64,000 nt of DNA from IMG/VR virus record IMGVR_UViG_3300045988_146774, positions 32,001 through 96,000 of that record; one strand, written 5' to 3'. This DNA comes from a virus. Below, piece by piece: positions 37,984 through 52,989 of this stretch. The position numbers and the translations under genes were made by a program. Below the pieces are notes generated by a model that was not told the origin of the DNA, made no database searches, and saw nothing but the letters and a program-made list of their open reading frames with translations. Each line of letters starts with the position of its first letter. The stretch's first letter is position 1.

Positions 37984-38151
37984 TGTAAACATATTGCCGA
38001 CTATTACAGTAATGTAATAAAAATAAAAGTGGCTATATCGGTTAATGTCCAGAAGTGGACAAGACCGAGGAAAGACTTGTATATTTTCGAAGCATATCAA
38101 TTAGGAAGGGTATGCTTTTATTAATTATAAAATTAAAATTAAGGAGATAAA

Positions 38152-39075: not shown

Positions 39076-39170
39076 ACTAATGCCTAATCATTTGGTTATG
39101 TGAAAAAGAAAATATACAAGAATCCGTAACGACTGTAACACTTTATATGGTAACATATAAAGTTTCGCCA

Positions 39171-39180
39171 CTCTCCTATT
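39171..39180 (+). promoter_or_regulatory. CTCTYCTATT motif copy (inside intron 1)
   Basis: Exact CTCTCCTATT. Part of hairpin TCCTAT-taat-ATAGGA between the R-like and S-like elements. Confidence 0.45.
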
Positions 39181-39344
39181 AATATAGGATGAAGATCCAG
39201 TCTGAACTGTCAATAGACACTTCTATGAATTATTTCATAGTCGCCACGCTATAACTTAATGAAACGTGGGAATTAGCCAGAAATGACTAATCGCTATATT
39301 TAATATAGTCAGTACCATCTCACAAATGGGAAAGTAACAGGAAG

Positions 39345-39954
39345 AATATGTGGAAAACGGTTAGCGCAAGATTGCGTGGTTCAGAATCTGAACTTAGTGC
39401 TATGGGTGAAGACACAGATGGTCTTGTAACCTCTACATCTAAGCTTCAGGCAAAAGTCAAAGCACTTACTGGTGGCTTTGACATTATGAAAGATAAAGAT
39501 ACATATAAAGATATCTATGATATTGTAGTTGGAATTGGTGAAGCATTTCCAAAGATGAATGACATAAATCGTGCTAGTTTGCTTGAACTTTTAGCAGGGA
39601 AAAACCAGTCAAATGCCCTCGCAGCAGCACTTCAGAACGTTGATGTGATAAAGAAGGCTTACAACACGGCTGCCAATGAATCAGAAGGATCTGCCGAAAA
39701 AGAATTTGACAATTATAAAAAATCGATCGATTATTCTATTCAAAATTTTAAGGCGCAGTTCCAATCTTTCTCATCATCCTTAGTATCATCTGACTTTGTA
39801 AAAGGAATTGTTGATAGTGGATCATCGGCACTTAATATCATTACGCAACTCATAGATAAAGTAGGCTTATTGAAAACTGCCTTCGCTACATTCGCTGGCG
39901 TAAAACTTTTCAAAAACTTAGATTTGTTTTATCTAAACTGGTCACTTCATACAT
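39345..39954 (+). CDS. tape measure protein, exon 2 (3' boundary uncertain: 39908 or 39954)
   Basis: Continues the TMP core (NMWKTVSARLRGSESEL...LLELLAGKNQSNALAAAL...). Has no SD of its own. Its frame stops at 39954-56, just before a group I core. Confidence 0.7.
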
Positions 39955-40310
39955 AAGAATATAACGAAAATGGTGTTGTAAACAAGTGTGTGTTGTTAAC
40001 GTTTTAAAATTAGGAAGATTAATTGCTGGGAAGCCTAATGCTTAATGAGCTACAACATAGTCGGAAACGGCAAGTGTGAATGCGACGAAAGTAGAAAAAA
40101 TCATTAAGATGACATATGGTGAAATAAAAGGCATCGGGAAGATGCTCCTAAGTGTCTAGTATAAGGGCAAAGGTTATAATAACCGACTAACTGATCAGCA
40201 ACGCACTGTTATAGAGAATATATAGCTGTATAGCAGGACGCTCAGAGACTACCGATCTTCGAAGTCAATATGACCTTACAGTATTGACTTATAATGTATA
40301 GTCCAAGAAA
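39955..40310 (+). ncRNA. group I intron 2 catalytic core (P, Q, R and S elements all present)
   Basis: P AATTGCTGGGAAGCC (40021-35), Q CTGATCAGCAAC (40191-202), R GCTCAGAGACTACC (40240-53, versus consensus GTTCAGAGACTACA), P8 AGTCAATA/TATTGACT, S AATGTATAGTCC (40293-304, versus AAGATATAGTCC). Candidate P1: CATACAT(39948-54) with GTGTGTG(39986-92). Confidence 0.7.
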
Positions 40311-40642
40311 CAATATATGTTTTGTTATTACATATTCAAATAAAATAACACGATGCCTTCTATCCCATCGTTATTGGCAATGGATAGAGAATAAATAACT
40401 ATAAACAATAATGGAGATTAGAAAAATATCTAATCTCCAAAATATAATATCGTGTCTCAGACCAGTCATAGTTTGAGATGCATATATTATAAGATATTTT
40501 CCGATTTCTGTAAATGGATTATGGAGAATATACAATTAGCTTACAGAAAGTGAGTGGCAATCCCCAACGGAGCTTGTGATGGCTCCGAAGGGTTTTCTTA
40601 AAAAGGAGGAAATTAATGGAATGATTCACAAATTCAAGTTAA

Positions 40643-40840
40643 TTATTTATTATGTAGTGTGAACATACTATGTGACATCATTTTAGCAATTGCCTTAGCT
40701 TTTTCATCACTGATGTCATCCTTAAAAGCGATAAGGAAAACAGCAATAATTTTAGAAATCTCATGAAGAGAAACATAAAGCATAAACGGAATCACTAAAT
40801 AGATGTTGTTTAAAAGAATTCCAAAAAATTCTTTCAACAC
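40643..40840 (-). CDS. small hydrophobic protein (cargo island)
   Basis: 65 aa with GGAGGG SD on the minus strand (the TTG at 40837 is the likelier start). Two hydrophobic segments. Lies downstream of the Spo0A-C-like gene. Confidence 0.5.
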   Translation of the reverse strand: MLKEFFGILLNNIYLVIPFMLYVSLHEISKIIAVFLIAFKDDISDEKAKAIAKMMSHSMFTLHNK

Positions 40841-41009
40841 TACCCTCCTTTCTGTAAGATTAATTATCTTATTGGAAAATCAGGCAGAATAGCCCATTAG
40901 ATTTCCATCGTGCCATTGTCTTACACTGGCACTACCACGTAAAGATATGGTTACGAAAATCCGTGGAACTAAGCATATTGTGGTCATATGCTGATTTTGT
41001 AACAAATAC

Positions 41010-41018
41010 ATTATACCA
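41010..41018 (-). promoter_or_regulatory. extended -10 element TGgTATAAT (minus strand)
   Basis: Reverse complement of ATTATACCA, about 170 nt upstream of the 40840 start. Confidence 0.35.
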
Positions 41019-41071
41019 TTTTGTCAAAATTTGGAAATCCAGAACATACATTCAGAAAATAAATTAAACGG

Positions 41072-41410
41072 CTAATTGTATAAATTTCGGATTTTATCTT
41101 TATATGCAAAAGCAAGCGCACCTAGAAATTGTGCATTTGATGGACATTTGTTTGGAATATAACCGAATATTGGTTTTAGAATATCTTTTTGTTCATTAAA
41201 AAGATGTCGCACGACTGTACGAATGTTTGATTCTACGACCATTGTAGATGTATGGAATTTCTTTGCAATGGAAGGATATATGTCTTTTGTGATAAGATAT
41301 ATCTCATCATCTTCCACTTCGTTAATTAATTCAATCGCATATTTGATATATCGGTATCCTTTGTACCTCCGACTTATGCGACAGATGAATAAAAAGTCAT
41401 CAATTTTCAT
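41072..41410 (-). CDS. stand-alone Spo0A C-terminal (DNA-binding) domain protein, no receiver domain
   Basis: About 112 aa from the ATG at 41410 (GAGGTGA SD). KGYRYIKYAIELI...ITKDIYPSIAKKFHTSTMVVESNIRTVVRHLF...FGY...PSNAQFLGALA parallels Spo0A-C (HIKGYLYLREAI...[32 protein letters not shown]...FGYT...PTNSEFIA). Confidence 0.7.
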   Translation of the reverse strand: MKIDDFLFICRISRRYKGYRYIKYAIELINEVEDDEIYLITKDIYPSIAKKFHTSTMVVESNIRTVVRHLFNEQKDILKPIFGYIPNKCPSNAQFLGALAFAYKDKIRNLYN

Positions 41411-41443
41411 ATAAATCACCTCATAAGTAAAAGATGCATTAAT

Positions 41444-41471
41444 AATATACCATATTTAGCATACATTTCAA
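41444..41471 (-). promoter_or_regulatory. sigma-A-type promoter for the Spo0A-C-like gene (TTGAAA, 16 nt spacer, TGgTATATT)
   Basis: Minus strand: -35 TTGAAA (41471-66) and extended -10 TGGTATATT (41452-44). Confidence 0.4.
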
Positions 41472-41514
41472 GATGTGACGTGCTAAGATTGTGTTAAGAT
41501 ATTAGTGTTAAATG

Positions 41515-41521
41515 TGTCGAA
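41515..41521 (+). promoter_or_regulatory. consensus 0A box TGTCGAA
   Basis: Exact match to the Spo0A-box consensus TGNCGAA. It lies in the 390-bp divergent region between the Spo0A-C-like gene and the TA locus. Confidence 0.3.
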
Positions 41522-41591
41522 TGGCAAAAATCACAATAAAACTATTATATTTTTGTGTATTATTTGTGTAGCATTTTCCCCATGGAACGGG

Positions 41592-41597
41592 TATAAT
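41592..41597 (+). promoter_or_regulatory. -10 box TATAAT upstream of the antitoxin-repeat RNA
   Basis: Perfect TATAAT 34 nt before the first RNA repeat. No convincing -35 seen. Confidence 0.35.
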
Positions 41598-41630
41598 ATA
41601 AGCAAGAAAACAAAAGTTTTCTTATATACG

Positions 41631-41752
41631 TTTCACAATGTACGCCAAAGAAACATTGTATTTTGAGACAAACGTACTTCGCAATGTGTACCGAATTACA
41701 TTGTATTTTGAGACAAATTCCTTTCACAATGTAGGACAAAGAAACATTGTAG
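41631..41752 (+). ncRNA. type III antitoxin-like RNA: about 2.6 tandem repeats of 44-47 nt
   Basis: Repeat 1 is 41631-41677, repeat 2 is 41678-41721, and partial repeat 3 starts at 41722. Each has an ACAATGT...ACATTGT hairpin and a shared TATTTTGAGACAAA tail. They sit directly upstream of a terminator and a ToxN-like ORF. Confidence 0.7.
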
Positions 41753-41753
41753 A

Positions 41754-41787
41754 GGAGTGGTTCTGTTTAACAGATCACTCCTTTTTT
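41754..41787 (+). terminator. rho-independent terminator between the RNA repeats and the toxin gene
   Basis: GGAGTG/CACTCC stem followed by T6, as in the toxIN-type architecture. Confidence 0.65.
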
Positions 41788-41803
41788 GATACATAGGAGA
41801 AAA

Positions 41804-42349
41804 ATGAAAGAACATGCTTTATATTTTGGGAAAAATGAGTATTATGAAATAATCAGAAGGAATGGTGGAACATGGAATGATTCAAAGGAAAGACCAATTG
41901 TATGTTTGATGAAATCCATAGAACACGAAAAGTTATATTGGGCTATTCCAGTTGGTAATTATTATCATAGAAATGAAGCTGCACGAGAAAGATTAGAAAA
42001 ATATCTTGGAAAAGATAAAAAGAATATACAATCTTGTTTTTATCATGTTGGAAATACAAATGAAAAATCTATTTTCTTTATAAGTGATGTTATACCTATT
42101 ACTGACAAATATATAGAACGGGAATATTTGAATAAAACAAGAAAGGTTCATGAGATAAAAAATAAAAAATTGTTAAATGAATTGGAGTATAAACTTAGTC
42201 GTATATTATCGTTTGAAAACAATAAACCAAATTATTTCCGTCAACACATTACAGACATTAAAACTTATCTGTTAGAAGAATTGAGACAGGAAGAATTACA
42301 ATCTCAAGAAGAAAACACAGAAGAACAAATCCAAGAATCAGAGCAGTAA
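41804..42349 (+). CDS. type III toxin (ToxN/AbiQ/CptN-like endoribonuclease)
   Basis: 181 aa from the ATG at 41804 (AGGAGA SD). N-terminal pattern Y-x-x-x-EYY...ERPIVCLMKS...LYWAIPVG resembles ToxN/AbiQ (RPY-hydrophobic run...Y(F)APLSS). The genomic context (repeats plus terminator) is diagnostic. Confidence 0.6.
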   Translation: MKEHALYFGKNEYYEIIRRNGGTWNDSKERPIVCLMKSIEHEKLYWAIPVGNYYHRNEAARERLEKYLGKDKKNIQSCFYHVGNTNEKSIFFISDVIPITDKYIEREYLNKTRKVHEIKNKKLLNELEYKLSRILSFENNKPNYFRQHITDIKTYLLEELRQEELQSQEENTEEQIQESEQ

Positions 42350-42365
42350 TCACACTGCTCTTTTA
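42340..42365 (+). terminator. rho-independent terminator
   Basis: AGAGCAG/CTGCTCT stem followed by TTTT, overlapping the toxin stop codon. Confidence 0.6.
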
Positions 42366-42400
42366 TTATGTCAAAAATAAAGAGTAGAGAAAATTTTACC

Positions 42401-42410
42401 CTCTTCTATT
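42401..42410 (+). promoter_or_regulatory. CTCTYCTATT motif copy (inside the cargo island)
   Basis: Exact CTCTTCTATT, 52 nt after the toxin stop. Confidence 0.45.
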
Positions 42411-42443
42411 CTACCACTTATATCCACAATCTTTACATTCAAA

Positions 42444-42720
42444 CTAACTACGTGCTGTTTTACTAAATATTCCAAGCAACCCTACTCCTACTGCTTTTGA
42501 TGCTGCGGAGATACGTTTGATATTTGTAAAATTGCATGTTGGGCAAGTTATTTGTGTGTTTGATTGTTGGCTTGAGGATTGATGTTGGGTGGATGTCGCA
42601 TTCCCTTTTACAGTACTCATTCTGTTTTCGTAGGTTTTTTCTGAAAATTGAAAACCGCCAAATTTATTAGCCAGAATACAGTAATATTACTAAATACAAT
42701 ACAATAGATTTATTTTTCAT
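42444..42720 (-). pseudogene. frameshifted fragment paralogous to the C-terminal half of CDS 43789..44325
   Basis: Minus-strand translation ...KFGGFQFSEKTYENRMSTVKGN...ITCPTCNFTNIKRISAASKAVGVGLLGIFSK... parallels ...KYGGNQFSECAYRH...VTCPYCKSTNTKKISAVSRAGSILGFGLFSK.... An upstream 17-codon ORF (ATG at 42720) is in another frame. Confidence 0.5.
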
Positions 42721-42738
42721 TTTGATATAAATAAAAAA

Positions 42739-42976
42739 AGAATAATACAATAAATAGACTCATCTCAGGTGCTAGACCACCAGGTGCATCAGTGAAATAA
42801 CGCAATTTACTATTATCTAGATGGTAAAGAACGCCAATGCTCACAAACATATTCCAGTCTACCGAAGCGGACTCTCGTATATTCGTGAACGTGTACTGGT
42901 TTCAGCACATTATACGTCATATAGCAATCACCTCCAAGATACACCCTTGAGATGAGCCTGTTTATTGTATTATTCT
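42739..42976. repeat. 29-bp inverted repeats (27/29 match) flanking a 180-bp segment
   Basis: Left arm 42739-42767 (AGAATAATACAATAAATAGACTCATCTCA) and right arm 42948-42976 (TGAGATGAGCCTGTTTATTGTATTATTCT). Confidence 0.6.
42813..42920 (-). CDS. 35-aa micro-ORF with strong SD, enclosed by the inverted repeats
   Basis: GGAGGTG SD 8 nt before the ATG. Peptide MTYNVLKPVHVHEYTRVRFGRLEYVCEHWRSLPSR. Below the ORF-track size cutoff. Confidence 0.35.
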   Translation of the reverse strand: MTYNVLKPVHVHEYTRVRFGRLEYVCEHWRSLPSR

Positions 42977-42984
42977 ATATTATT

Positions 42985-43677
42985 TTATTTGTTTTTATTT
43001 AATAATTTTTCTGCTTTTTCAAGTTCATATTTATTATGTATAGAACTTATTAATGCCTTTAAGAAACTTTTCATTTGCTCTATGTCGTATTCGGGATGTT
43101 TCACCATGTAATGTGTTTCGTCGTTTCCAAGCCACGTGGCTGCATTCGCTAATTTTTGTATAGGTTCAAATTCGATTTTTTGGCAACATTTTTCCAATCG
43201 GCATTCTCCAATAGCTTCTTTGGTTAGATTTTGTTCTTGTTGTAAATAGTCTTTCACAAGAAATTCAAGAGCTTTTCTGTAACCTGTGCCGGCTATTGTA
43301 AGCAAACCTTGTCTTTCACATTCACACGCCTCAGAAAATATTTTTGTAAAATCTGGATATTTGTCTTTAATATCTTGAGGAATTGAACTTTCTTCAATCT
43401 CTTTCGGATATGGATATCTAACATCTTTTTCAACATTTTTCAAACTACTTTTCATGTGATATAGAGATACATAATATTGTTTACAATTTGTACAATACCA
43501 AACTGCAAATAAAAGAGGCTTCTCCTTTTCATTGAAAGATCTAATTAAACATCCGTTTGCATATTCTGGTTTTCCAGACTTATGACATATTGGACATGTT
43601 GGTTCGATTTCTACAGAACTTGAAACTTTCGCATTTTCAATTTGTTTCGAATCAAATAATTTTATATCAACATTCAT
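42985..43677 (-). CDS. zinc-ribbon plus DUF4145-like helical domain protein
   Basis: 230 aa. CPICH...CTNC zinc ribbon. The C-terminal ...FSEACECERQGLLTIAGTGYRKALEFLVKDYL...ATWLGNDETHY... resembles DUF4145. Confidence 0.5.
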   Translation of the reverse strand: MNVDIKLFDSKQIENAKVSSSVEIEPTCPICHKSGKPEYANGCLIRSFNEKEKPLLFAVWYCTNCKQYYVSLYHMKSSLKNVEKDVRYPYPKEIEESSIPQDIKDKYPDFTKIFSEACECERQGLLTIAGTGYRKALEFLVKDYLQQEQNLTKEAIGECRLEKCCQKIEFEPIQKLANAATWLGNDETHYMVKHPEYDIEQMKSFLKALISSIHNKYELEKAEKLLNKNK

Positions 43678-43788
43678 TTATTGTCACATCCATTAACCTT
43701 ATACATAAAATTATATATTAATTGCTTTTTATTGTATATACGGAACTAATGTTTTGGTAATTTTTACCATAATTGATACATAAAGCTG

Positions 43789-44325
43789 TTAGAAATCACT
43801 ATTGCAATTGTTACAATGCCATTCTTTTCCCAATTTCTTAGAGAACAATCCAAATCCAAGGATTGATCCTGCTCTGCTTACTGCTGATATTTTTTTAGTG
43901 TTTGTAGATTTACAGTATGGGCAAGTTACCTGAGTTATGTGTTGCTGTTGGATGGACTGGTGTTGGTGGGTGGATTGATTTTTATTTTCTTGTTTTATTA
44001 AACTCAATCTATGACGATATGCACATTCAGAAAATTGATTACCGCCATATTTTTTTGAGAGAATGATATCATAATCATTTTCATTGTCCATATTGTTGAT
44101 AAAATCATTCATGGTTTCTTTTGTAATAATTGTTTTTATATTACAAAAGCGACATTTTTTGTCGGCGTTTAATTCATCGCTTGAGTATATCATTGCACAT
44201 TTTGGACAGATATAAATATAGTCATCTGCTTCTAAATTTGAACTTAAAGGGTATCCACACTGATTGCATTCTTTAGCATAATTACTAATTTCTTTCCCAC
44301 ATTCAGGACACTTTATTAATGCCAT
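43789..44325 (-). CDS. multi-zinc-ribbon protein
   Basis: ATG at 44325 with GGAGG SD (the track ORF starts at 44370). Motifs CPECG...CNQCG, CPKC...CRFC, CPYC...CNNC. Confidence 0.55.
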   Translation of the reverse strand: MALIKCPECGKEISNYAKECNQCGYPLSSNLEADDYIYICPKCAMIYSSDELNADKKCRFCNIKTIITKETMNDFINNMDNENDYDIILSKKYGGNQFSECAYRHRLSLIKQENKNQSTHQHQSIQQQHITQVTCPYCKSTNTKKISAVSRAGSILGFGLFSKKLGKEWHCNNCNSDF

Positions 44326-44360
44326 ATTATTTCCTCCGAACAATCTTATAAATTTATTTA

Positions 44361-44390
44361 AGTATATCATGAATTGTAAAAGTATGCCAA
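44361..44390 (-). promoter_or_regulatory. sigma-A-type promoter (TTGGCA, 18 nt spacer, TATACT) for the minus-strand cargo operon
   Basis: Minus strand: -35 at 44390-85 and -10 at 44366-61. It abuts the start of TMP exon 3. Confidence 0.4.
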
Positions 44391-47300
44391 TAATTTTATA
44401 TTCATTATGCAGTTTAAAGACTTAGGAAGTTTATTTGATAGTTTTGGAGAACTTAATTTTAAACATGCAAGTAAAGCCTCTTCTTTTGCGGATTTGGATG
44501 GAATAGATAAAAACACTATAAAAGGTTTGTTTAAAATAGATAACAATGATATTAGTGATTTTACAATGGCTCAAATTCAGGCAAAAGCAAGTACGATGGG
44601 ACTTACTGAGTCATTAACAGATGAATTAATGGCTATGTCAAAAGACGCTGATTTTACAGCCAAAGCAAAAGTCGGTAAAGTAACTTGGGGGGAAGCACTA
44701 AAAGAAGGTTCAACAAATGCGGATCAAATAGGGAAAGCATTAATGAAATCTTCCGATGTTTCCGATAAAGCAAAGAAAAAATTATCGGAAGTTTATGATA
44801 AATTTGGAAGTGGAAGTCAAGTATATCAAAAACAGATAGAAAATATTATAAATGGTGCAAATGGTTTAGATGATATTTCTGGTAAATTTACAACTCTTGG
44901 GGCTGATGTCCAAAAATCTACTGGAATGTTCGAATCCGCTGGTAATATTATCAAAGGATTCTTTGCATCAATAAAAGGGTATATTCCTATTCTTGCTGTT
45001 GCCGGAACAGCTTTCGCAGCGTTTAAACTTTGGGACTATTCTCAAACTGGATATACTAGAGCTAAAGAGAAAGCAGAAACTTCAGCTTCTACTTTTTCAG
45101 AAGATAAATCTAATCTCCAATCTCTTCAACAAGAACTTGATACAACAAAGAGTAAAATTGAAGAACTCAATGCTACAAAAGAACAGAATGGTGGATTGTC
45201 TCTTACTGATGAAGCGGAGTTATCTAGACTTGAACAAGAAAATGCCCAGTTGGAGCGTAAGGTCGCAATTCAGAAACAGCTCACAGAAATTTCCGCACAG
45301 GCTGCTTCAAGTGACGCTCGAAAAGCTGCCAATACTGCCCAAACATATTGGGATCATCTTAAAGAGAAAAATGGCGGAGGATTTTTTGGAACGCTAAAAT
45401 CTATTCCTGAATATTTTGCTACAAAACGTGAAGAAAAAGATGGAAAAGTTTATCTCACTAAGGAGAAAAATACTTGGGAAAAAGAAAATGGTGGTAAAGG
45501 AAATACCACTCTTGAAAATCAAACAAAAGCCAATATTAAAACGCTCAAAGATTACCAAAGTCAATTAGAAGATATTGAAACTCAACTTGGAAGTTCTGAT
45601 TTGACAAAAGGAGAAAGAAAAAGTCTCCAAAAACAGCAAAAAGAACTTAGTGAAAATATTGCTGATACAAAGCAGACTTTATCTACACAGACAGACCAAC
45701 TTCAGCAGTGGATTGATGCTTCATATGGGGCAGATGGAAAACTTGAGTCTGGAGCATCTAAATATGTAGATAATTGGAATAAAATCATTAACGATGTTAA
45801 CAATACTATCGGGCAAAAGACCAAAACACAAATTGACGCAAGTAATTTAGATACTTACTTCAACTCTTCTTCTGGTTCTGCTATGAAAGAATATTTGGAG
45901 AATATTGTTGAGGAAGGCGGATCTGCTCAAGATGCACTTGACGCATTTAGAGAGTCCGGAATGCGTCTCAAAGATATTGATGTTTCAGAAAATGGATTTC
46001 TTACATATTTTGAAGATGTAAAACGTCAGGCAGAGGAAGCAAAGCAAGCTGCGGAAGATTATTCCGCTTCTGTTTCAGATGTAGAATCTGCAACTGAATC
46101 TGCAAATCAGGACAAAGATTGGTCTACTATCCAAAGTGCTTATAAGGCTGCAAAGGAATCATTGAAAGAAGGCAAAACTGGAACCGATGATTTTCAGACT
46201 ATGGCAAAATTCCTTAACTCCAATGCGGTAAAGAAATATGCAGAGCAAGGCGGTAAATATACTGCTGATGCTTATCAGAAAGCTTTCCAAGAGGCAATGG
46301 GAACAGCCGATAGATGGTTTGGTGATGATGAAGCCACTAGTATGAAGAATTTCGTCAATGACTTCAAAAATAAAGGATTGTGGGATGTCTCTACTGACGC
46401 AATGGGTCTTTGGGATATCAAAACAAACTTTAATACAACTGCTGAAGCTGCTGACAAGTTTGGAATGAGTGTTGAATCCGTAGAAACAATGTTGCATGGT
46501 CTTGAAGCCTATGGATATGACTTTAGTGACATTATGTTTTCTGCTGAAGGTCTTGATGAATATAAGACAGCTCTTGACGGGATTAAATCTACATATGATG
46601 AAATGACGGATGGTGCTGCTAAAGATAGACTTGGATCATTGATTGATAGTTTTGAATCTGAATATGATAAATTCCAAAATGGAGATTTAAAGAATCTTAC
46701 AAAGGATCAGATTGTTAAAATTAAATTTGAGTATGATTTATCTCAAGTTGAGCAAAAAACTCAAGAGTTGATTGATCAAGCTGCAAACAGTGGCTCTAAT
46801 AATGATTTAGCCGGAGCAATAGTTTCTCAGAAAAAAGAGCGTGATTTATTAGAGGGACGGACGAAATATACAAAAGATTCTGATGAAGGGTATTCATATT
46901 CTTATGATCAGATTGATAAGCTCCAACAAAAAATGACTGGCGCAACAAAGACAGAACGAGCAGAGATTAATAAGCAAATTCTTGCATATCAAGAAATGCA
47001 AAATAATTTTCAGAAATACAGACTTGATGGTGGAGATTTAAATTGGAATGATTATTTGGATACTCCTTCTGCTACCGCTGCTTTTGATGAGATTATTAAA
47101 AAAGGTCTTATGACAAAAGACCAACTCAAAGATTTGTTTGGAGAAAAAGCAACTTATGAGATTGATGCAAAGCTCAACGACGATAATCTCCAAAGCAAAT
47201 TAAAGAAGCTTAAATCTGGTGAAAGCATTACTTTTAAAGCAGATGTTGGCGATATTGAGACTGATGTAGAGGCTGTAAAAAATGAAGACGGTACGGTAAC

Positions 47301-50300
47301 ATACACAGCAAATATTGGTGGAGTCCCAAAAGAAGTAAATAAAATTGCCGACGCTGAAGGCAAGATTCATTATACTGCTGATTTTGATGGTTCGAAGGAA
47401 TGGCTTGAGAACAATCTTAAAAAAGAAGAAACAATTACATTCAAAGCTGACGTTGCTGGGGTTACACAAGATATCCAAGCTTATAAAGACGAAGACGGTA
47501 CAATTCATTATTATAGTGTTTTAGACAATGGAACACGCAAAGAACTAGAACAACATAAAAATGAAGACGGTACAATTACCTATACTACTACTGCTGACAC
47601 TTCTGGTGTGGAAAAAGCGACCAAGAAAGCTAAGGAAAATGCTGAAAAGAATAAAATCGAATTAGAGATTACTGCAAAAGATACCAATCTTGTAGATAAA
47701 TATATACAAGAAAAACAGAAAAGTGACGCAGCGAAATCAAAACTATCAGATTCTGAAGCTGTACATGGTAATGTAGATAGTCGTGATCGTCCAATGATTT
47801 ATTGGGACAAAGAAAACCTTAAATCTAATAAATCTGCTCTTAAGAGTTGGGGGCAGAATCCAAAGGATTTAAAAGGATCTTATTCTACTGTCATGGGCGG
47901 AAGTGATGAATTTCAAGGTGTAGAAATTGCATATACTCCTGTGCTGAAGACTGGTGATGGAAAAGGTGAAGTTATCAGCAAAAACACAATGAGTAAGTAT
48001 ATTAACACTCTCATTGATCAAGCAAAATCCGCTGGTGACGGAAATTGGACTACTGAAGATTTATTAAAATTAGATTCTGAAGGTTTATTAGTCGACGGGA
48101 AGAAAATTTCTAATATGATTGCAGATGTTGGTGACACTGCCAAAGAAACCGGCGAAAAGATGCATGATATAGATGATTCTCTTTATTCCGAAGAATATGC
48201 AAAATACTGGGATGAAATTTCTGAAAAGGCTGAAAAGGCTAATATGTCCGTCGAGGATTATGTCAATACAGTTGCTTCTACTAGCGTAACATCAGATAAT
48301 CTTGTAACAAAAGATAATGGATTTGATAAAGTTGTTGAAAACGCAAAGAATGCTGTCGAGACATTAAAAGGGCTTGGTAATGAGAATCTTAAGTTAGATT
48401 TTGATTTTAAAACTACTAATCTTACAGATATAGAAAATCAAATTCAGCAAGCAAAGAGTAATCTTGATCAGTTTAAGAATGATGACGGTACTGTTAATAT
48501 GTCAATCAATGGAGCACAAGAAGCAGTTACAATTCTTGAGACATTGATTCAGCAAAAACAGCAAGCCTCTAATCCTGTAATAATGGAAGTAAGCACAAGT
48601 GGACTTGATTCCGGAGTATCTGGTGCGGTTTCAAAATTAAAGGAGTATCAAAATGCCTTAAACCAGCTTAATACTCTTAATGAATTAAAAACTGCCGGGG
48701 TACAAATTGATGATTCTCAAATATCTGATGCCGAGGATAAAGTAAATGGCTTATTTGATGAAATTCAGAAAGCTTCTGAAAAAGGTCAATTTAAAATAAA
48801 TGCCGATGTTTCTGTAGATTCATCTTCACAAGAAAAGCTACAGTCAGACCTTAAAAACATGACTCCGGAGATTAAAGCAAAAATTACTGCGGATGATTCT
48901 GACACAAAGAAAGATGGCAAGACTACTGAAGCAAAAGTAAATTACAAAAAAGGATCACAAGAAAAACCAAGTCCTAAAAATGCCAAAGTTAATTACAAAA
49001 AAGGTTCTCAGGCAAAGCCTAGTCCAAAGAACGCAAAAGTTAACTATAAAAAGGGTAGCCAGGCTAAACCAAGTCCTAAAAATGCCAAAGTTAATTACAA
49101 AAAAGGTTCTCAGGCAAAGCCGACATCTCCTAAAACAGCAACAGTTAACTATAAACTTGGTACAGTTGCAAAACCACCTGCTGTAACAGTTAAAGTTAAT
49201 TACGATACTTCTGGTGCACCTAAAGTTCTTGGAACAGCGCATGTAAAAGGATCTACTGGTGGTTTATATCCTATTCCACAATTATCAAGACGTGCACTGG
49301 CAAGCGGAACATTGTCTGATTCCTCATGGTTGAAAGATAGATGGAAAACGAAAGACTCTGAAATGGCTTTGGTTGGGGAGGTCGGACAGGAACTTGTAGT
49401 TTCTGGAAACAGATGGTACACCGTCGGTGATAATGGTGCGGAATTTGCTCATATTCCTGCCAAATCAATCGTATTCAATTCTAAGCAGACTGAAGAGCTG
49501 TTGAAAAAAGGGTTTACTAATTCTAGAGGCAAAGGCAATATATCATTACCTGGAACAGAAGCATTTGCATCTGGTACTGCTTACAGGTTAGGCAGCGGAG
49601 CCTCTTCTACTACAAATGCTAAGAAAAAAACTTCGTCTGGAACCAAATCCTACGGAACTTCAAAAGCGAAATCAAGCTCTGGTTCAAACACAAAATCCAA
49701 TTCCAATTCAAATCCTGATTCATCTGAATCAGCAGAAAAATCTGAAGAATTATTAGATTGGATTGAAACTCTGCTTTCAAGGACTTCTAGATTGACAGAG
49801 TTAGCCACAAGTGCTGTTGATCGTGCGGTCGGATTGGCTAATAAGCAGAATGCACTTGTAGATGCGGTTACAAAAACTCAGAATGAAATCACTACAAACC
49901 AAAATGCAGCGAATAAATATTTTGCTCAAGCAAATTCTCTTGGTCTTGCTCAAGGATATGTCGACAAGATTAAAAATGGTACTCTTGATATTGAATCAAT
50001 TACTGATGATAATCTTAAAGATAAAATCTCTAAGTACAAAGATTACTATGAGAAAGGCTTGTCTGCTCAAGATAAAGTCCTCGACCTTCAAGACAAACTT
50101 AATGAACTCTACCAGAAACGATTGGAAATCATAGAAAAAGAATATGATACTATCGTTGAGGTAAACGATTCATTAAAGGATATGCTTGATGCTAAAATTA
50201 GTTACAACTCTGCTTATGGCGTAGCAAATGACAATCAAGATAATATAGATAGTATCAATAAGTCTATCAAAGCACAAGAAGATACTATCAATCAGCTTAC

Positions 50301-51287
50301 TAAAAAGCTTGATGCATATCAGAAGGAAGTTAATTCTCAGATTACTTCCGGGACATTGAAGAAAGGTTCTGAAGATTATAGGTCTGCACAGAAAAATCTT
50401 AATGATTTTACGGCAAATATTTATAAAGCATCACAAGAACTTATCGAGTTACGGGATAAACTTGTACAGTTAAGAGCTGATGCAATTCAGACGATTATTG
50501 ATACGTTCAAAAGACGTTCTGATAAATTGGATAAGTATACTTCTCTTCTTGAAGCTAAAGATGAAACTGTACCAGAATCAGTATATCAGGAAAGACTGGA
50601 TAACAACAATGACACAATTCGTAAGAACCAAGAAGCCAGAGCCATTTGGCTAAAACGACAAGCAACCGAAGATGTAAATTCGGACAACTATAAGAAATAT
50701 GCTGAGGAAATCCAGAAACTTGATGAATCCACTCTTGACCTTATGAAAGACAACGAAGATTTAAAGAACTCTATCTATTCTCTCAGAATCAAAAATCTGG
50801 AAGATGCCATCAAAGGTTATGATGATTTGGAAACTGAGTTAAAAGGATTCAGAGATCTTTTAAATGACGATGCTTTCTTAGATAAAAAGGGTGGAATCAC
50901 AGATGAAGGATTGGCTCAGATTACTCTTCTCTCTCAGAGTATCGGAAATGCAAAACAGAAAATTTCTGACCTCACAACCGGACTTCAGAAAGTAAAAGAA
51001 CTTTATGATAATGGTGTTATCTCACTTAAAGAATATAACGAAAAATCTGCGGAATATCGCAAAGAACTTCAGTCTTCTACAAGTGATGTAAAATCTTATC
51101 AGAAGAGTTTGACTGATTTATATCAGAATGCTTTGAAAACAGAAGTGGATGCACTTCAAAAAGTCATAGATAAAAGAAAGTCGGCACAGACCGCCCTTGC
51201 TTCATATTACGATTTTCAAAAAAAAGTTACATCTCAAACAAATGATGTAAACAGCTTAAAAGCTCAAATTGCAGCACTCGAAGGGGT
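44387..51287 (+). CDS. tape measure protein, exon 3 (5' boundary uncertain: in-frame acceptor candidates after G44386, G44412 or G44419)
   Basis: A 2301-aa ORF with no SD before its first ATG (44407). TM segments, long coiled coils, EDGT(I/V)xY modules, 17-aa tandem repeats and the LVGEVGQELV motif. The frame degenerates after 51287. Confidence 0.75.
48931..49230 (+). repeat. in-frame 51-nt (17-aa) tandem repeats AKVNYKKGSQ(A/E)KPSPKN, 4 copies plus 2 degenerate
   Basis: Read directly from the protein (KVNYKKGSQEKPSPKNAKVNYKKGSQAKPSPKNAKVNYKKGSQAKPSPKNAKVNYKKGSQAKPTSPKTATVNYKLGTVAKPPAVTVKVNY) and from the nucleotide sequence. Confidence 0.85.
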
Positions 51288-52989
51288 AACATTATTTGCC
51301 CTATTTGTTTAATTGCTGGAACGCCCTTAGAGCTACATATACTACAACGAATACATGAAATAAGGTAAATCGTGAATGTTAAAAAATATGTAGATTGGGT
51401 AATCAGCAGCGAAATTCCGAACAGGAATACGTTCAACGACTAGGTAGGATGAGTGTACTACCGTAGGATCGCAAGCGATTGGCGATTCGAAAAATACAAA
51501 CTGTTTATTAATTAAATATAGAATTCATAAATCACGTTGAGATATACGTGATTTTTTAGTGTGCGAATTTATTTAAAGAGAATAAAAGAAATGGAGGTGA
51601 AATATGCTAGTACCTAATCAAAAAGTTGAGGTATGCTGGAATAATACAACAAAAAAACATTATATGGAATTGGGATATGAATTTACAAAAATCAGAGATA
51701 AATTTCTTGTAAATGTTGAAGATTTAACACCTCATTCCGGAGAACAAATAAGCGTAATTTGTGATTACTGTGGCAATCAAAAAATGACAACATTCAATGA
51801 TTATAATTGTTCTATTAAAAAATATCCATATAAATATTCTTGTTCAGAATGCATCCCAGTAAAACAAAAAGAAATTAGAGGAAATAAATATAAAGGAAAA
51901 TATTTTAACGTATTTGTCAATAAATGTATTGAGAATAATTGTGTTCCAATTTCAACTATTGATGATTATCAAAATGCATATTCTAAGCTATATTTTATTT
52001 GTAGTAAACACGGACAACAATGTATAACTTATAATAGCATTAAGGCTGGGTCTTGGTGTATAGAATGTGGACATGATAAAGGGGCAAAAAAGATTGCAAC
52101 GCCAATAGATAAAGTAATTAAAATAGTTGAATCAAAAAATAATAATAAAATTATTAATCCAGAAGAGTACATAAATTTTAGCACTTCTAATCTTCTTATT
52201 AGATATGGATGCTGTGGAAAAGTTTCAACTACTTCATTGAACTCGTTAGAGAATAGTGATGGTCTATGCTATGATTGTGGACAAAAGAAAGCAAAAGAAC
52301 ATATAAAATTATCTATGGAAGAAGTAACAAAACGGATAAATTCTGTTAACAATAATAAATTGTTAAATCCAAGTGAATATATTGACAATTCTACAATTAA
52401 TTTAAAGATATTATGTGGAGAATGTAATAAAAATATTTTTATAACAAGCTTGGCTAATTATGAATATAATCAAAAAATACGTTGTGGAACATGTTCTCAG
52501 AGGATAAGCGTCCCGGAAAGAACAACACGAAATATTTTAGAAAAATATGATATAAAGTATCTTCCAGAATACAAATTCAAAGATTGTAAAGACAAAAGAC
52601 CACTGCCATTTGATTTTTATCTTCCAGAATATAATATTTTAATAGAATTAGATGGGGAGCATCACTATCATCCTAAATGGGGTGATGAGCAGTTGAAATA
52701 TATTCAAAATCATGATAAAATGAAAAACGAATATTGCGAAAATAATAATATCACTTTAATTCGAATTCCATTTTGGGAGTTTGATAATCTTGAAAAAATT
52801 CTTATAGAAAAACTTAATCTTCCACAAATCGTGGACATAGAATTATCCAATGGTCGAATTTTTAAATACAAAGCACACAAACCAAAAGAATAATTAATAA
52901 ATAGAAGATATAGTCTAATCTCATATGAAAGTATGAGGAGAGTTATACTACTCTCTCACTTATGTAGCGAATAAGTGAAAAGATAAATG
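51288..52989 (+). mobile_element. group I intron 3 (with endonuclease ORF in the P8 region)
   Basis: P1: exon GGGGT(51283-87) pairs with GCCCT(51298-302). P AATTGCTGGAACGCC (51311-25), Q AATCAGCAGC (51401-10), R GTTCAACGACTAGG (51431-44), S AAGATATAGTC (52905-15), P7 GACTA/TAGTC. Ends in G52989. Joining gives ...AALEG-V-NDAATLAKKK in frame. Confidence 0.8.
51604..52893 (+). CDS. intron-encoded putative homing endonuclease (four zinc-ribbon repeats plus PD-(D/E)XK / Vsr-like domain)
   Basis: 429 aa, GGAGGTG SD. Repeated CxxC...CxxC units. C-terminus ...SVPERTTRNILEKYDIKY...FDFYLPEYNILIELDGEHHY... resembles DUF559/Vsr-type nucleases. Confidence 0.6.
   Translation: MLVPNQKVEVCWNNTTKKHYMELGYEFTKIRDKFLVNVEDLTPHSGEQISVICDYCGNQKMTTFNDYNCSIKKYPYKYSCSECIPVKQKEIRGNKYKGKYFNVFVNKCIENNCVPISTIDDYQNAYSKLYFICSKHGQQCITYNSIKAGSWCIECGHDKGAKKIATPIDKVIKIVESKNNNKIINPEEYINFSTSNLLIRYGCCGKVSTTSLNSLENSDGLCYDCGQKKAKEHIKLSMEEVTKRINSVNNNKLLNPSEYIDNSTINLKILCGECNKNIFITSLANYEYNQKIRCGTCSQRISVPERTTRNILEKYDIKYLPEYKFKDCKDKRPLPFDFYLPEYNILIELDGEHHYHPKWGDEQLKYIQNHDKMKNEYCENNNITLIRIPFWEFDNLEKILIEKLNLPQIVDIELSNGRIFKYKAHKPKE

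What the first reader, a model, noticed from the sequence alone, without database searches (positions are those of the whole stretch)
39909..44412. 4.5 kb interruption of the tape measure gene: a complete group I core followed by a bidirectional multi-gene cargo island
Exon 2 stops at 39954. TMP coding resumes only near 44400, with no SD there.

The first 400 nt of the gap hold a full group I core (P, Q, R and S, ending at P7' near 40304). Introns 1 and 3 reach their 3' splice sites 75-145 nt after S. Here about 4.1 kb follow instead, containing:
- a minus-strand Spo0A-C-only gene and a small membrane protein;
- a plus-strand type III TA locus;
- a minus-strand operon (multi-zinc-ribbon protein, zinc-ribbon/DUF4145 protein, IR-flanked micro-ORF, decayed paralog fragment), each unit with its own promoters and terminators.

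The gap is flanked by an imperfect direct repeat that encodes the same peptide motif: TTCAAAAACTTAGATTTGTTTT (39909-30, FKNLDLF) and TTTAAAGACTTAGGAAGTTTATTT (44413-36, FKDLGSLF).

Two readings fit. Either the intron carries a defence or host-manipulation island in a 3' peripheral region and still splices, or the island landed in the intron and broke the TMP. I am not aware of multi-gene, bidirectional cargo described inside a group I intron.

The splice sites are ambiguous by eye. The 5' candidates are U39908 or U39954; the latter has a 7-bp P1 with GTGTGTG at 39986-92. The 3' candidates follow G44386, G44412 or G44419.
Basis: partly seen in the sequence, partly recalled or inferred. Interest (0 to 1): 0.88.

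Follow-up and report, generated by a model that had tools for sequence, protein, structure and literature searches.

The report
Defence-gene island inside a phage intron

Summary
The tape measure (TMP) reading frame breaks at 39923/39954 and resumes at 44410. A group I core fills 39924-40304.

Comparison with about 100 related loci favours "island inside an intron that still splices".
- The intron's guide sequence pairs with the end of exon 2 (P1, U39923·G39941) and with the first 7 nt of the downstream frame (P10, 44410-16). Three unrelated guide sequences in relatives each match their own downstream frame.
- That frame has no ribosome-binding site. In many relatives it has no start codon, only a conserved G (ωG, G44409).
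- One relative has an uninterrupted TMP of at least 3572 codons, colinear with both halves.
- The core covaries strongly: 38 of 94 pairs show compensatory changes.
- A pseudoknot after the core presents a loop (40370-79) complementary to 44385-94, 15 nt before the 3' splice site.

Relatives carry 1.2-7.1 kb at this site. The minimal form holds only an antisense zinc-ribbon gene. Larger forms add GmrSD, ToxN/CptN, Lamassu-like, MazF and other genes.

The closest known architecture is the IStron. Splicing itself is inferred, not shown.

The parts
39348..39923 (+). It ends ...AAA AAC TTA GAT (FKNLD); the 5' splice site follows U39923.
   Evidence: Hundreds of TMP homologues lose similarity exactly after KN(L/F/V/I)(D/G). 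In P1, the U·G pair is present in 12 of 12 lineages.
39924..44409 (+). Group I intron, 4486 nt: ribozyme at the 5' end, island in the middle, ωG (G44409) at the 3' end.
   Evidence: The 7-mer G+CAGTTT occurs once downstream of the core in the window, at the first codon of the 2300-codon frame.
39921..39943 (+). P1 hairpin with the internal guide sequence. Exon pairs: G39921-C39943, A39922-U39942, U39923·G39941. Intron extension: 39924-29 with 39935-40.
   Evidence: Compensatory changes among relatives: GAU/GUC, GGU/GCU, UAGAU/GUCUA, UGGAU/GUCCA, AUAGGU/GCUUAU.
39934..39940 (+). The 5' part of the guide sequence (UAAACUG). It forms P10 with exon 3 nucleotides 44410-44416 (CAGUUUA).
   Evidence: In L009 and L098 the pair is AAGCUG/CAGCUU. 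Types B and C use different guides that match their own exon 3.
39948..39992 (+). P2 (39948-54 / 39986-92) with an inner stem (39961-66 / 39974-79).
   Evidence: The alifold consensus predicts it. Helices 1-2 are 98-100% paired, with 7 compensatory pairs.
40014..40304 (+). Catalytic core: P3, P4, extended P5 domain, P6, P7, P3', P8, P7' (R element 40240-53, S element 40293-304).
   Evidence: The P4-P5 part is about 75% identical to sequence that splits the RNR gene of Brochothrix phage A9. Rfam RF00028 does not detect the core.
40305..40389 (+). 3' domain: an AU-rich P9-like hairpin, then an H-type pseudoknot (S1 40351-55 / 40366-70; S2 40357-65 / 40382-89). The linker of the pseudoknot is the left arm, GUUAUUGGCA, at 40370-79.
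   Evidence: S1 and S2 are fully paired in 8 lineages with different sequences. G·U pairs are allowed only on the + strand.
40643..40840 (-). 65-aa hydrophobic ORF. It lies in module 40501-41042, which close relatives L001 and L033 lack.
   Evidence: No family hit.
41072..41419 (-). Spo0A C-terminal (DNA-binding) domain-only protein, 115 aa.
   Evidence: Pfam PF08769 at 1.2e-20. TIGR02875 matches the C-terminal part only.
41624..41751 (+). cptI-like antitoxin RNA array: 45-nt unit x 2.7, each unit holding a hairpin.
   Evidence: Rfam RF02920 at 73.5 bits; TRF.
41786..42349 (+). CptN-family type III toxin, 187 aa.
   Evidence: NCBIfam NF047359 at 9.6e-17, which is below its curated cut-off. PDB 4RMO CptN at 4.5e-7.
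42340..42361 (+). Terminator-like hairpin on the + strand after cptN. A cis pre-mRNA must read through it.
42444..42620 (-). 58-aa remnant paralogous to the C-terminal zinc-ribbon module of the 178-aa protein.
   Evidence: tblastn: 45% identity over residues 85-175.
42727..42988 (.). 41-nt imperfect inverted repeats flanking 180 nt. Function unknown.
42985..43677 (-). 230-aa zinc-ribbon plus DUF4145 protein.
   Evidence: phrog_1305 at 4.4e-38. Pfam DUF4145 at 4e-4, below its cut-off.
43789..44325 (-). Conserved intron-resident multi-zinc-ribbon protein, 178 aa from M16 of the listed ORF (SD GGAGG at 44333-37). It is the last gene before the 3' splice site and runs antisense.
   Evidence: It occupies this position in all A-type loci. 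It is the only gene in the 1.2-1.3 kb introns L098 and L099 and lies in the 1.7 kb gap of L100. Only Cys, Pro, Gly and Ser columns are invariant. No fold match.
44361..44390 (-). Sigma-A-type promoter of the zinc-ribbon gene: TTGGCA, 18 nt, TGnTATACT.
   Evidence: The -35 and -10 boxes are conserved in relatives.
44385..44394 (+). Right arm, UGCCAAUAAU. It is complementary to the left arm at 40370-79 and overlaps the -35 box on the other strand.
   Evidence: Bridge helix: 83% of cells paired against 29-44% when slid. Pairs next to the invariant UUGG/CCAA core take AU, GC, UA and CG forms. Single-sequence matches are not significant on their own.
44410..51302 (+). TMP exon 3, starting CAG TTT AAA GAC (QFKDLGSLF...). 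It runs to the next group I intron at about 51303.

Best explanation
Positions 39924-44409 are one group I intron in the tape measure gene of an SPbeta-like phage or prophage of gut Lachnospiraceae.

**Layout.**
- The whole ribozyme (P1-P8, then a P9-like hairpin and a pseudoknot) lies in the first ~470 nt.
- About 4 kb of accessory genes follow.
- They sit in the loop of a long-range helix. That helix forms between the pseudoknot linker (40370-79) and a box 15 nt upstream of the 3' splice site (44385-94).

**Proposed mechanism.** During late transcription the plus strand is read through the island.
1. The guide sequence holds exon 2 through P1 (U39923·G39941).
2. The bridge helix and an unusually long P10 (7 bp here, up to 9 bp in relatives) bring ωG44409 and exon 3 to the core.
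3. The two transesterifications join ...FKNLD to QFKDLGSLF..., giving a TMP of about 3590 aa.

**Island genes.** They have their own promoters and are presumably expressed from the prophage or early in infection. They include CptIN, a Spo0A-C protein, a DUF4145 protein and a zinc-ribbon protein. In relatives the island also carries GmrSD, ToxN, Lamassu-like, MazF and PD-T4-2 genes. The intron therefore works as a phenotypically silent docking site for exchangeable defence or moron cassettes.

**Shown versus inferred.** Shown: the sequence features, their conservation and their covariation. Inferred: that splicing occurs, that it occurs in cis, and that the bridge helix acts at the RNA level.
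For: 1. **Three unrelated guide sequences each match both exons.**
   - Type A: P1 GAU/GUC and variants; P10 UAAACUG/CAGUUUA.
   - Type B: P1 GUCGGU/GCCGAC; P10 UUUGAAUGU/ACAUUCAAA, with a C-G to U-A swap in L021.
   - Type C: P1 CUGAGU/GCUCAG; P10 GUGCAAG/CUUGCAC.
   - In nearly every locus that is long enough, G plus the reverse complement of the guide falls on the first codon of a frame of 900 to 2300 codons. This holds 1.2-7.1 kb downstream.
2. **The downstream frame cannot start on its own.** It has no SD. The preceding codon is ATG, TTG, TCG, ACG or CCG, so only the G is conserved. In L009, 39 conserved codons precede the first start-type codon.
3. **Uninterrupted homologues exist.** L079 has a single frame of at least 3572 codons, colinear with both halves. 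The Brevibacillus phage Sundance TMP continues 1440 aa past the equivalent point.
4. **Homologues break at one residue.** The best-scoring TMP-N homologues examined (of 1875 found) end within 0-40 residues of KNxD/G, with unrelated read-through tails. This is the signature of an insertion at one point.
5. **The core is under structural selection**.
6. **The 3' domain is structured RNA.** The pseudoknot and bridge helix show compensatory changes and plus-strand G·U pairs.
7. **Minimal forms exist.** The 1.2-1.3 kb introns L098 and L099 hold only the core plus the antisense zinc-ribbon gene, and L100 has a 1.7 kb gap of the same layout. The island is therefore an expansion of an ordinary ORF-bearing intron.
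8. **The architecture has a precedent.** In IStrons the cargo lies after P9.2, is enclosed by a 6-10 bp IR stem, and the 3'SS follows shortly after (PMC4227781).
Against: - There is no transcript or protein evidence.
- Rfam RF00028 does not detect this core, even at E<=10 on 551 nt, and finds nothing in six relatives at gathering score.
- The exon part of P1 is only 3 bp in the window.
- A terminator-like hairpin (42340-61) and three convergently transcribed units lie in the path of a cis pre-mRNA.
- In any single sequence the bridge match is no better than chance in this A/T-rich context: 95 to 884 of 2000 shuffles reach it.
- The invariant core of the bridge is also the -35 box of the zinc-ribbon promoter. 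Part of the conservation therefore has another explanation.
- No intron-less or ORF-less allele was found to define the homing site.
Confidence: 0.75

Rival explanations
1. Bipartite (trans) splicing. The 5' RNA (exon 2, core and left arm) and a separately made 3' RNA (right arm, ωG and exon 3) associate through the bridge helix and P10. The 3' RNA could be a read-through transcript from the cptIN promoter. The exons are then ligated in trans.
For: - The bridge (9-10 bp) plus the long P10 (7-9 bp) give 16-19 intermolecular pairs.
- Plus-strand terminator-like sites and convergent genes lie inside the island.
- Natural split or permuted group I introns exist in organelles (PMC6545197).
Against: - The minimal 1.2-1.3 kb introns with the same arms need no trans step.
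- No conserved plus-strand promoter precedes the right arm. The only candidate, at 44374-44402, scores 9 of 12 and would start transcription at the splice site itself.
- The island's gene content, and hence any internal promoter, differs between relatives.
Confidence: 0.1
2. The TMP is genuinely split into two polypeptides, TMP-N and a 2750-aa C-terminal protein. The ribozyme is a relic or only cleaves the transcript. The downstream frame is translated by non-canonical or internal initiation.
For: - Gene callers annotate two genes in every relative.
- The window, L001, L007 and L033 do have ATG two codons before the conserved FK motif.
- Genes split by mobile insertions are known in T4-like phages (from memory).
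Against: - No locus has an SD.
- TCG, ACG or CCG replaces the ATG in many lineages, while the next 20-64 codons stay conserved.
- A relic ribozyme would not keep 97.6% pairing with 38 compensatory pairs, nor guide sequences that track both exons.
- The uninterrupted homologue has the same total length.
Confidence: 0.07
3. DNA-level removal. The arms (TTATTGGCA ... TGCCAATAA) are terminal inverted repeats of a mobile DNA island, with the zinc-ribbon protein as its recombination factor. The island is excised, or only ever inserted, at the DNA level. The expressed copy then carries a small ordinary intron.
For: - Inverted repeats bound the variable DNA and co-vary. Protein-recognised TIRs would co-vary too.
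- The zinc-ribbon gene always accompanies them.
- IStron ORF modules can be excised between their IRs (PMC4227781).
- Some islands hold 2-3 zinc-ribbon gene copies (L013, L030).
Against: - No transposase, recombinase or nuclease signature appears in the zinc-ribbon protein: only Cys, Pro, Gly and Ser columns are invariant, and there is no fold match.
- No other island gene of the window shows one either.
- The left arm sits inside a pseudoknot whose stems tolerate G·U only on the plus strand.
- No arm-to-arm deleted form occurs among about 100 loci, including virome-derived contigs.
- The arms are not at the ends of the variable DNA. The conserved zinc-ribbon gene lies inside them.
Confidence: 0.05
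4. The island destroyed the intron, and the locus is a decaying prophage with a non-functional TMP.
For: - L007 shows decay downstream, with a Tn7-like insertion in ORF2.
- Rfam does not recognise the core.
Against: - Exon 3 stays open for 2300 codons in an A/T-rich genome, and for 900-2300 codons in dozens of diverged relatives.
- The architecture recurs in four ribozyme lineages and in 90-200 kb viral contigs.
Confidence: 0.03

Closest known systems
IStrons (CdISt1, BcISt1 and others): group I intron / IS200-IS605 or IS607 chimeras of Clostridia, Fusobacteria and Bacilli (PMC4227781, PMC3984707)
   Same: - The complete ribozyme sits at the 5' end.
- Foreign genes are embedded in the 3' domain after the P9 elements.
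- The gene region is enclosed by a short inverted-repeat stem (6-10 bp in group A).
- Only a short tail separates the stem from the 3' splice site.
- The hosts are Firmicutes.
   Different: - The cargo here is not an IS. No TnpA, TnpB or serine recombinase was found.
- The cargo is 1 to about 7 genes on both strands and reaches intron lengths of 7.1 kb, against at most 2.6 kb and forward-strand ORFs in IStrons.
- The element occupies one fixed site in a phage structural gene, rather than many genomic sites.
- It keeps a conserved antisense zinc-ribbon gene.
- The core lacks the P7.1/P7.2 hairpins described for IStrons.
Phage T4 nrdD (sunY) intron with I-TevII ORF ('remote 3' splice junction', Michel et al. 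1992, recalled from memory; ORF position noted in PMC3984707)
   Same: The catalytic core lies wholly upstream of the ORF. The 3' splice junction is far from the core and is brought back by base pairing of the 3'-terminal segment.
   Different: The T4 intron carries one sense-strand homing-endonuclease gene, with about 0.8 kb between core and 3'SS. Here 4 kb separates core and 3'SS (up to about 6.6 kb in relatives), the cargo is non-HEG, and the docking loop is presented by a pseudoknot.
Hexacoral / corallimorph mitochondrial ND5-717 giant group I intron (PMC6545197)
   Same: It is a group I intron that carries many unrelated genes (18-19 kb) in a peripheral loop and is still removed precisely.
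   Different: [quoted passage not shown] Here the cargo is accessory or defence genes after P9 in a linear phage transcript.
Group I introns in prophage tape measure genes of the Bacillus cereus group (PMC2504315)
   Same: The host gene class is the same: several group I introns per TMP gene. The window has three.
   Different: Those are ordinary introns, with or without one endonuclease ORF, and carry no accessory-gene island.
Defence-system hotspots of P2/P4-like prophages (bioRxiv 10.1101/2021.01.21.427644)
   Same: A fixed position in a phage genome where unrelated anti-phage systems replace one another between close relatives.
   Different: Those hotspots are intergenic. This one lies inside the coding sequence of an essential late gene and depends on RNA splicing to be harmless.

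Membership tests
Group I intron | P1 helix between the 5' exon end and an internal guide sequence, with a U·G wobble at the 5' splice site | tested here: met
   U39923·G39941. The U·G pair is present in 12 of 12 A-type lineages. The neighbouring pair is AU in 8 and GC in 4. Types B and C have their own P1.
Group I intron | Conserved core helices P3-P8, with the P3/P7 pseudoknot and P/Q/R/S sequence elements | tested here: met
   All helices are located. 97.6% of cells are paired and 38 of 94 pairs are compensatory. R is GCUCAGAGACUACC and S is AAUGUAUAGUCC.
Group I intron | 3' splice site after a conserved G (ωG), with P10 pairing of the 3' exon to the guide sequence | tested here: met
   G44409 is conserved while the rest of the codon varies. 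P10 is 7-9 bp with covariation within type A and across types A, B and C.
Group I intron | Match to the curated covariance model (Rfam RF00028) | tested here: not met
   No hit at E<=5 on 16.5 kb or at E<=10 on 551 nt. No hit in six relatives at gathering score. The undoubted intron 3 of the same gene also scores only 37.8 bits, below the gathering score of 50. The ~150-nt P5 extension is a likely cause.
Group I intron | Guanosine-dependent self-splicing and exon ligation | not testable with these tools
   This needs an in vitro splicing assay or RT-PCR.
IStron | IS200/IS605- or IS607-type transposase genes (ORF A / ORF B) as the embedded component | tested here: not met
   No transposase, TnpB or recombinase family appears among the window's island proteins, nor among 75 cargo clusters from 29 introns. 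The only related hit is a weak match to a TnpB-type zinc-ribbon domain.
IStron | Cargo inserted after the P9 subdomains and enclosed by an inverted-repeat stem close to the 3' end | tested here: met
   Left arm 40370-79 and right arm 44385-94, with the 3'SS 15 nt further on. The description of IStrons is taken from PMC4227781.
IStron | Dispersed multi-copy insertion at many genomic sites next to a short target motif | tested here: not met
   All ~100 copies found lie at one homologous TMP codon. However, every locus was retrieved by TMP similarity, so copies elsewhere were not searched for.
Type III toxin-antitoxin, CptIN family (cargo gene pair) | CptN-like endoribonuclease toxin preceded by a tandem array of antitoxin RNA repeats | tested here: met
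   NF047359 at 9.6e-17 (61 bits, below the curated cut-off of 90) and PDB 4RMO at 4.5e-7. A 45-nt x 2.7 repeat array lies 35 nt upstream. Activity was not tested.
Homing endonuclease (as identity of the conserved intron ORF) | LAGLIDADG, GIY-YIG, HNH, His-Cys, PD-(D/E)xK or EDxHD catalytic motif | tested here: not met
   The zinc-ribbon family has only Cys, Pro, Gly and Ser invariant columns. It has no nuclease family hit and no fold match better than E=0.16.

The most novel reading that the evidence does not exclude
The element is a new class of chimeric mobile element: a group I ribozyme plus a cargo-carrying module. The module consists of the antisense zinc-ribbon gene, its promoter and the inverted arms, and it actively captures and exchanges defence cassettes. 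The ribozyme has evolved a dedicated pseudoknot 'docking loop' and a long P10 so that it can splice across at least 7 kb, possibly in two pieces. Phages would thus use self-splicing introns in essential genes as protected, horizontally exchangeable defence-island carriers.
Probability: 0.25. Interest if true: 0.9.

Novelty: new variant of a known kind. Interest (0 to 1): 0.8.

Why it matters
**A new location for phage defence islands.** If splicing is confirmed, these would be the largest group I introns I know of in bacteria or phages: 4.5 kb here and up to 7.1 kb in relatives. They would also be the first I know of with bidirectional, multi-gene, non-mobility cargo. Phage defence or moron islands would then have a location nobody looks in, namely the inside of an essential structural gene made harmless by RNA splicing.

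**Practical consequence for annotation.** Gene callers currently split these tape measure genes in two. All 120 top homologues listed in the protein database are truncated at the splice site. The cargo is therefore annotated as intergenic morons.

**Testable RNA questions.**
- How does a ribozyme find a 3' splice site 4-7 kb away? The candidates are the pseudoknot docking loop, a 7-9 bp P10, and read-through of internal terminators and convergent transcription.
- Does splicing efficiency couple expression of the island to tail assembly?

**Wider reach.** The family is widespread in human-gut Lachnospiraceae phages, so it may also be a useful source of new defence genes.

Tried and rejected
**Rejected splice sites and helices**
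- 5'SS at U39954 with P1 CATACAT/GTGTGTG. Close relatives have C at 39954, and the helix covaries as an internal stem, so it is P2.
- 5'SS at U39908 joined to G44412 (VKL|FKDLG). The guide sequence pairs with GAU39923, and P10 starts at C44410.
- Hairpin UUAGAU/AUCUAA as P1. It is not conserved in L009 or L026, has an A-U pair at the splice site, and is in the wrong order relative to P10.
- Flanking direct repeat as a target-site duplication. It is absent in A2-type relatives.

**Searches with negative or uninformative results**
- Rfam searches for the core: nothing.
- PADLOC on the window's six island proteins: nothing.
- megablast of 16 kb against GenBank phages: nothing.
- tblastn against phages: only weak TMP hits. 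These did lead to the uninterrupted Sundance TMP.
- RNAduplex of intron tails against intron heads: dominated by A/T-rich noise.
- Per-sequence shuffling test of the bridge: not significant. The argument for the bridge therefore rests on positional consistency and compensatory changes only.
- Intron-less junction patterns in IMG/VR: none. The one hit is a chance match.
- AF2 model (pLDDT 74) and Foldseek for the zinc-ribbon protein: no informative match.
- Literature searches for prior descriptions: none found in the held library. The library lacks most subscription-journal papers.

Full report
**1. What is in the window**

The plus strand carries a tape measure (TMP) gene in pieces.
- Exon 1 starts at 36055.
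- An endonuclease-bearing intron follows (ORF 38152-39075).
- Exon 2 is the ORF 39348-39956.
- A gap follows.
- A 2301-codon frame starts at 44407 and ends in another group I intron. Rfam RF00028 gives 37.8 bits at 51303-51501, below the gathering score.

- A Spo0A_C-only gene, 41072-41419(-), 1.2e-20.
- A 65-aa hydrophobic ORF.
- A type III TA locus. Its RNA part is 45-nt x 2.7 repeats, which is Rfam RF02920 at 73.5 bits. Its toxin is of the CptN family (NCBIfam 1e-16, PDB 4RMO 4.5e-7).
- A DUF4145/phrog_1305 protein.
- A multi-zinc-ribbon protein, plus a C-terminal fragment of a paralogue.
- 41-nt inverted repeats.

No SD precedes 44407.

**2. The TMP breaks at one exact residue in the relatives examined**

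I searched 5.8 billion proteins with exon 1 tail + exon 2 + the head of the downstream frame. This returned 1875 TMP homologues. None of the best 120 crosses the gap. Those matching the upstream part end 0-40 residues after the motif (F/I)KN(L/F/V/I)(D/G), with unrelated tails. Several tails are read-through of sequence homologous to the window's 39924 onward. Conservation that stops at a single residue is what an insertion at a fixed point produces.

Fetched contigs show the same layout in 90-200 kb SPbeta-like phages and prophages of Lachnospiraceae, Ruminococcus and Blautia, with YonB/YomW/YomU Pfam hits upstream. The layout is TMP-N, then 1.2-7.1 kb of variable genes, then a very long frame.

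**3. The two halves belong to one protein**

- Contig L079 carries an uninterrupted frame of at least 3572 codons. It aligns with TMP-N (46% identity) and, further on, with the downstream frame (27-39%).
- The annotated 2528-aa TMP of Brevibacillus phage Sundance continues 1440 residues past the equivalent point.
- The predicted spliced window protein is 643+192+2297+~455 aa, matching L079 in length.

**4. The ribozyme**

By eye and by RNAalifold, the first 381 nt after 39923 fold into P1, P2, P3, P4, an extended P5 domain, P6, P7, P8 and P7'. Canonical R (GCUCAGAGACUACC) and S (AAUGUAUAGUCC) elements are present, and S ends at 40304.

On ten distinct relatives:
- 97.6% of 932 cells are paired, and 38 of 94 pairs show compensatory changes.
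- The covariation score is 0.384, against 0.204 in column shuffles (0 of 500 reach it) and 0.06-0.07 for slid controls.

The P4-P5 segment is about 75% identical to sequence splitting the ribonucleotide reductase gene of Brochothrix phage A9, and to similar unannotated gaps in other Herelleviridae.

Against this, the Rfam group I model does not report this core at any threshold tried. I attribute that to the ~150-nt P5 insertion and to the model's known weakness. It also scores the gene's third intron below threshold. It remains a failed test and is recorded as such.

**5. The splice sites**

Group I introns choose their splice sites with one guide sequence. Its 3' part pairs with the 5' exon (P1, U·G at the site). 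Its 5' part pairs with the 3' exon (P10).

In the window, 39934-39943 (UAAACUG-GUC) does both.
- G39941·U39923, U39942-A39922 and C39943-G39921 form the exon part of P1.
- UAAACUG pairs with C44410-A44416 (CAGUUUA) to form P10.

Relatives vary coherently.
- P1 is GAU/GUC, GGU/GCU, UAGAU/GUCUA, UGGAU/GUCCA or AUAGGU/GCUUAU.
- P10 becomes CAGCUU/AAGCUG in L009 and L098.

Two other ribozyme lineages at the same TMP position use unrelated guides that again match both of their exons.
- Type B: GUCGGU/GCCGAC with ACAUUCAAA/UUUGAAUGU, and a C-G to U-A swap in L021.
- Type C: CUGAGU/GCUCAG with CUUGCAC/GUGCAAG.

An automatic search for G plus the reverse complement of the guide found it at the first codon of a 900-2300-codon frame in nearly every locus long enough.

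The nucleotide before the 3' exon is always G. The codon it sits in is ATG, TTG, TCG, ACG or CCG. It is therefore ωG, not a start codon. In L009 the first 39 codons of exon 3 precede any start-type codon, yet they are conserved.

The mature junction is ...GVKLFKNLD|QFKDLGSLFDSF....

**6. How the distant 3' splice site may be brought back**

After P7', A-type introns share a module: a hairpin, then an H-type pseudoknot.
- In the window, S1 is 40351-55 / 40366-70 and S2 is 40357-65 / 40382-89.
- Both stems pair fully in eight lineages with different sequences.
- They include G·U pairs that would be mismatches on the other strand.

The linker of the pseudoknot (GUUAUUGGCA, 40370-79) is complementary to UGCCAAUAAU (44385-94), 15 nt upstream of ωG. 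The same two homologous positions pair in every A-type lineage: UUUUGGUA/UACCAAAA, UGUUGGA/UCCAACA, AAUUGGC/GCCAAUU, and so on.

For this helix alone:
- 83% of cells pair, against 29-44% when slid.
- Covariation is 0.291, against 0.117 in shuffles (0 of 500 reach it).

There are three caveats.
- The UUGG/CCAA core never varies.
- The right arm is also the -35 box of the zinc-ribbon gene's promoter on the other strand (TTGGCA-18-TGnTATACT).
- In any one A/T-rich sequence a 7-9 bp match is not significant.

I therefore treat the bridge as well supported but not proven. The layout is the one described for IStrons: cargo after P9.2, enclosed by a 6-10 bp IR stem (PMC4227781).

**7. The island**

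The minimal introns L098 and L099 (1317 and 1236 nt) contain only the ribozyme, the arms and one antisense gene, a homologue of the window's 178-aa zinc-ribbon protein. A 42%-identical homologue sits the same way in a 1.7 kb gap in another phage lineage. This gene is the last gene before the 3' splice site in all A-type loci.

Its family has 166 hits, with only Cys, Pro, Gly and Ser invariant columns. It has no nuclease or recombinase signature, and the AF2 model has no informative fold match. Its role is unknown.

Everything else is inserted between the left arm and this gene, and it is mosaic even among close relatives. The window's 40501-41042 module is absent from L001 and L033. The CptIN module is replaced in L033.

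A census of 29 distinct introns (75 protein clusters) gave:
- GmrSD_N/NsnA (5)
- PD-T4-2_A (4)
- REase_II (3)
- ToxN/AbiQ (2)
- PDC-S45 (2)
- LmuA/LmuB (Lamassu)
- PemK/MazF (2)
- SocA_Panacea
- DUF3800 and DUF2513
- Spo0A_C

The site is therefore a defence and accessory-gene hotspot.

**8. Mechanism proposed, and its weak points**

The best reading (0.75) is cis-splicing of a 4486-nt intron whose island is looped out of a peripheral helix. The island genes are expressed from their own promoters.

The weak points are these.
- No RNA or protein data.
- Only 3 exon base pairs in the window's P1.
- A plus-strand terminator-like hairpin after cptN (42340-61), and convergent transcription units that late transcription must cross.
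- No intron-less allele found.

The rivals are listed with their tests in the Rival explanations section:
- assembly from two RNAs (0.10)
- a truly split gene (0.07)
- DNA-level excision between the arms (0.05)
- a dead gene (0.03)

**9. Comparison with what is known**

- Group I introns in TMP genes are known (PMC2504315).
- Cores with a remote 3' junction are known: T4 nrdD/sunY (from memory) and IStrons (PMC4227781, PMC3984707).
- Multi-gene cargo is known in hexacoral mitochondria (PMC6545197).

What I did not find described is a phage or bacterial group I intron with all of the following:
- several non-mobility genes on both strands
- lengths of 4-7 kb
- service as an exchangeable defence-island site
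- a conserved antisense zinc-ribbon gene and a pseudoknot docking loop

It fails the defining IStron test (no IS genes), so I file it as a new variant of ORF-bearing group I introns with IStron-like architecture, not as an IStron.

**10. Verdict**

- Observation: confirmed.
- Interpretation: the 'still splices' branch is favoured, with corrected splice sites.
- Novelty: new variant of a known kind.
- Interest: 0.8, conditional on experimental proof of exon ligation.

Noticed in passing
window 37990-39345 and 51303-53134: The same TMP gene holds two more group I introns with endonuclease ORFs. The ORF at 38152-39075 matches phrog_1271 (HNH). The ORF at 51604-52893 matches phrog_559 (HNH) at 4e-49. 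Intron 1 is absent from the close relative L001/P0013, which has a continuous 862-aa exon 1 + exon 2. Only intron 3 gets a (sub-threshold) Rfam hit.
   Followed up: partly
L027/L030/L071 (after exon-2 residue 125), L033/L082/L083 (residue 76), L034/L085-L087/L089 (residue 84): Relatives carry additional insertions of 0.5-2 kb at other positions inside exon 2. The TMP of this phage group is therefore a mosaic of intron sites.
   Followed up: no
L020, L028, L021, L031 (type B); L015, L050 (type C); L007, L013 (type A2): At least four different ribozyme lineages occupy the same TMP codon. Each has its own guide sequence, a remote 3' splice site and an island. This suggests repeated invasion or core replacement at one site.
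   Followed up: partly
L056 ~1680-1720 and L091 ~11880-11935 (780-920 nt into the intron): Type B introns contain an inverted copy of their own 3' junction (..UUUUUGAAUGU|CAUACUAUA..CUGUUUGAGGAU). It is complementary to the last 9 intron nt, the first exon nt and an upstream UCCUCAAACA box. It may be the type B counterpart of the bridge, or a DNA-level inverted duplication.
   Followed up: partly
window 41624-41751: Rfam RF02920 'Fusobacteriales-1' is typed as cis-regulatory. Here it is a tandem array directly upstream of a CptN-family toxin, so the family looks like a type III (CptI-like) antitoxin RNA.
   Followed up: partly
window 42727-42767 / 42948-42988: 41-nt, 85% complementary inverted repeats enclose 180 nt between the zinc-ribbon fragment and the DUF4145 gene. 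The arrangement is inverton-like or MITE-like. No invertase gene is nearby.
   Followed up: no
L007 16209-17929: In the Ruminococcus sp. genome GCA_041405285.1 the downstream TMP frame is cut short next to Tn7-like genes (TnsB, TniB Pfam hits). This copy is probably a decaying prophage.
   Followed up: no
L013 13522-14549 and 17000-17578; L030 12443-13470 and 15921-16469: Some islands hold two or three copies or fragments of the zinc-ribbon gene. This hints that islands grow by tandem addition of modules that each end in this gene.
   Followed up: no
window 10438-10510, 18006-18088, 18093-18182: Three tRNA genes lie upstream in the window, consistent with a large phage genome.
   Followed up: no
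L036 (GenBank MT835469.1, unannotated 176 kb 'Bacteriophage sp.'): A public phage record shows the same architecture: TMP exons separated by two endonuclease-bearing introns, then a ~3.6 kb gap with a DUF3800-like ORF, then a 2729-codon frame. It carries no annotation.
   Followed up: partly
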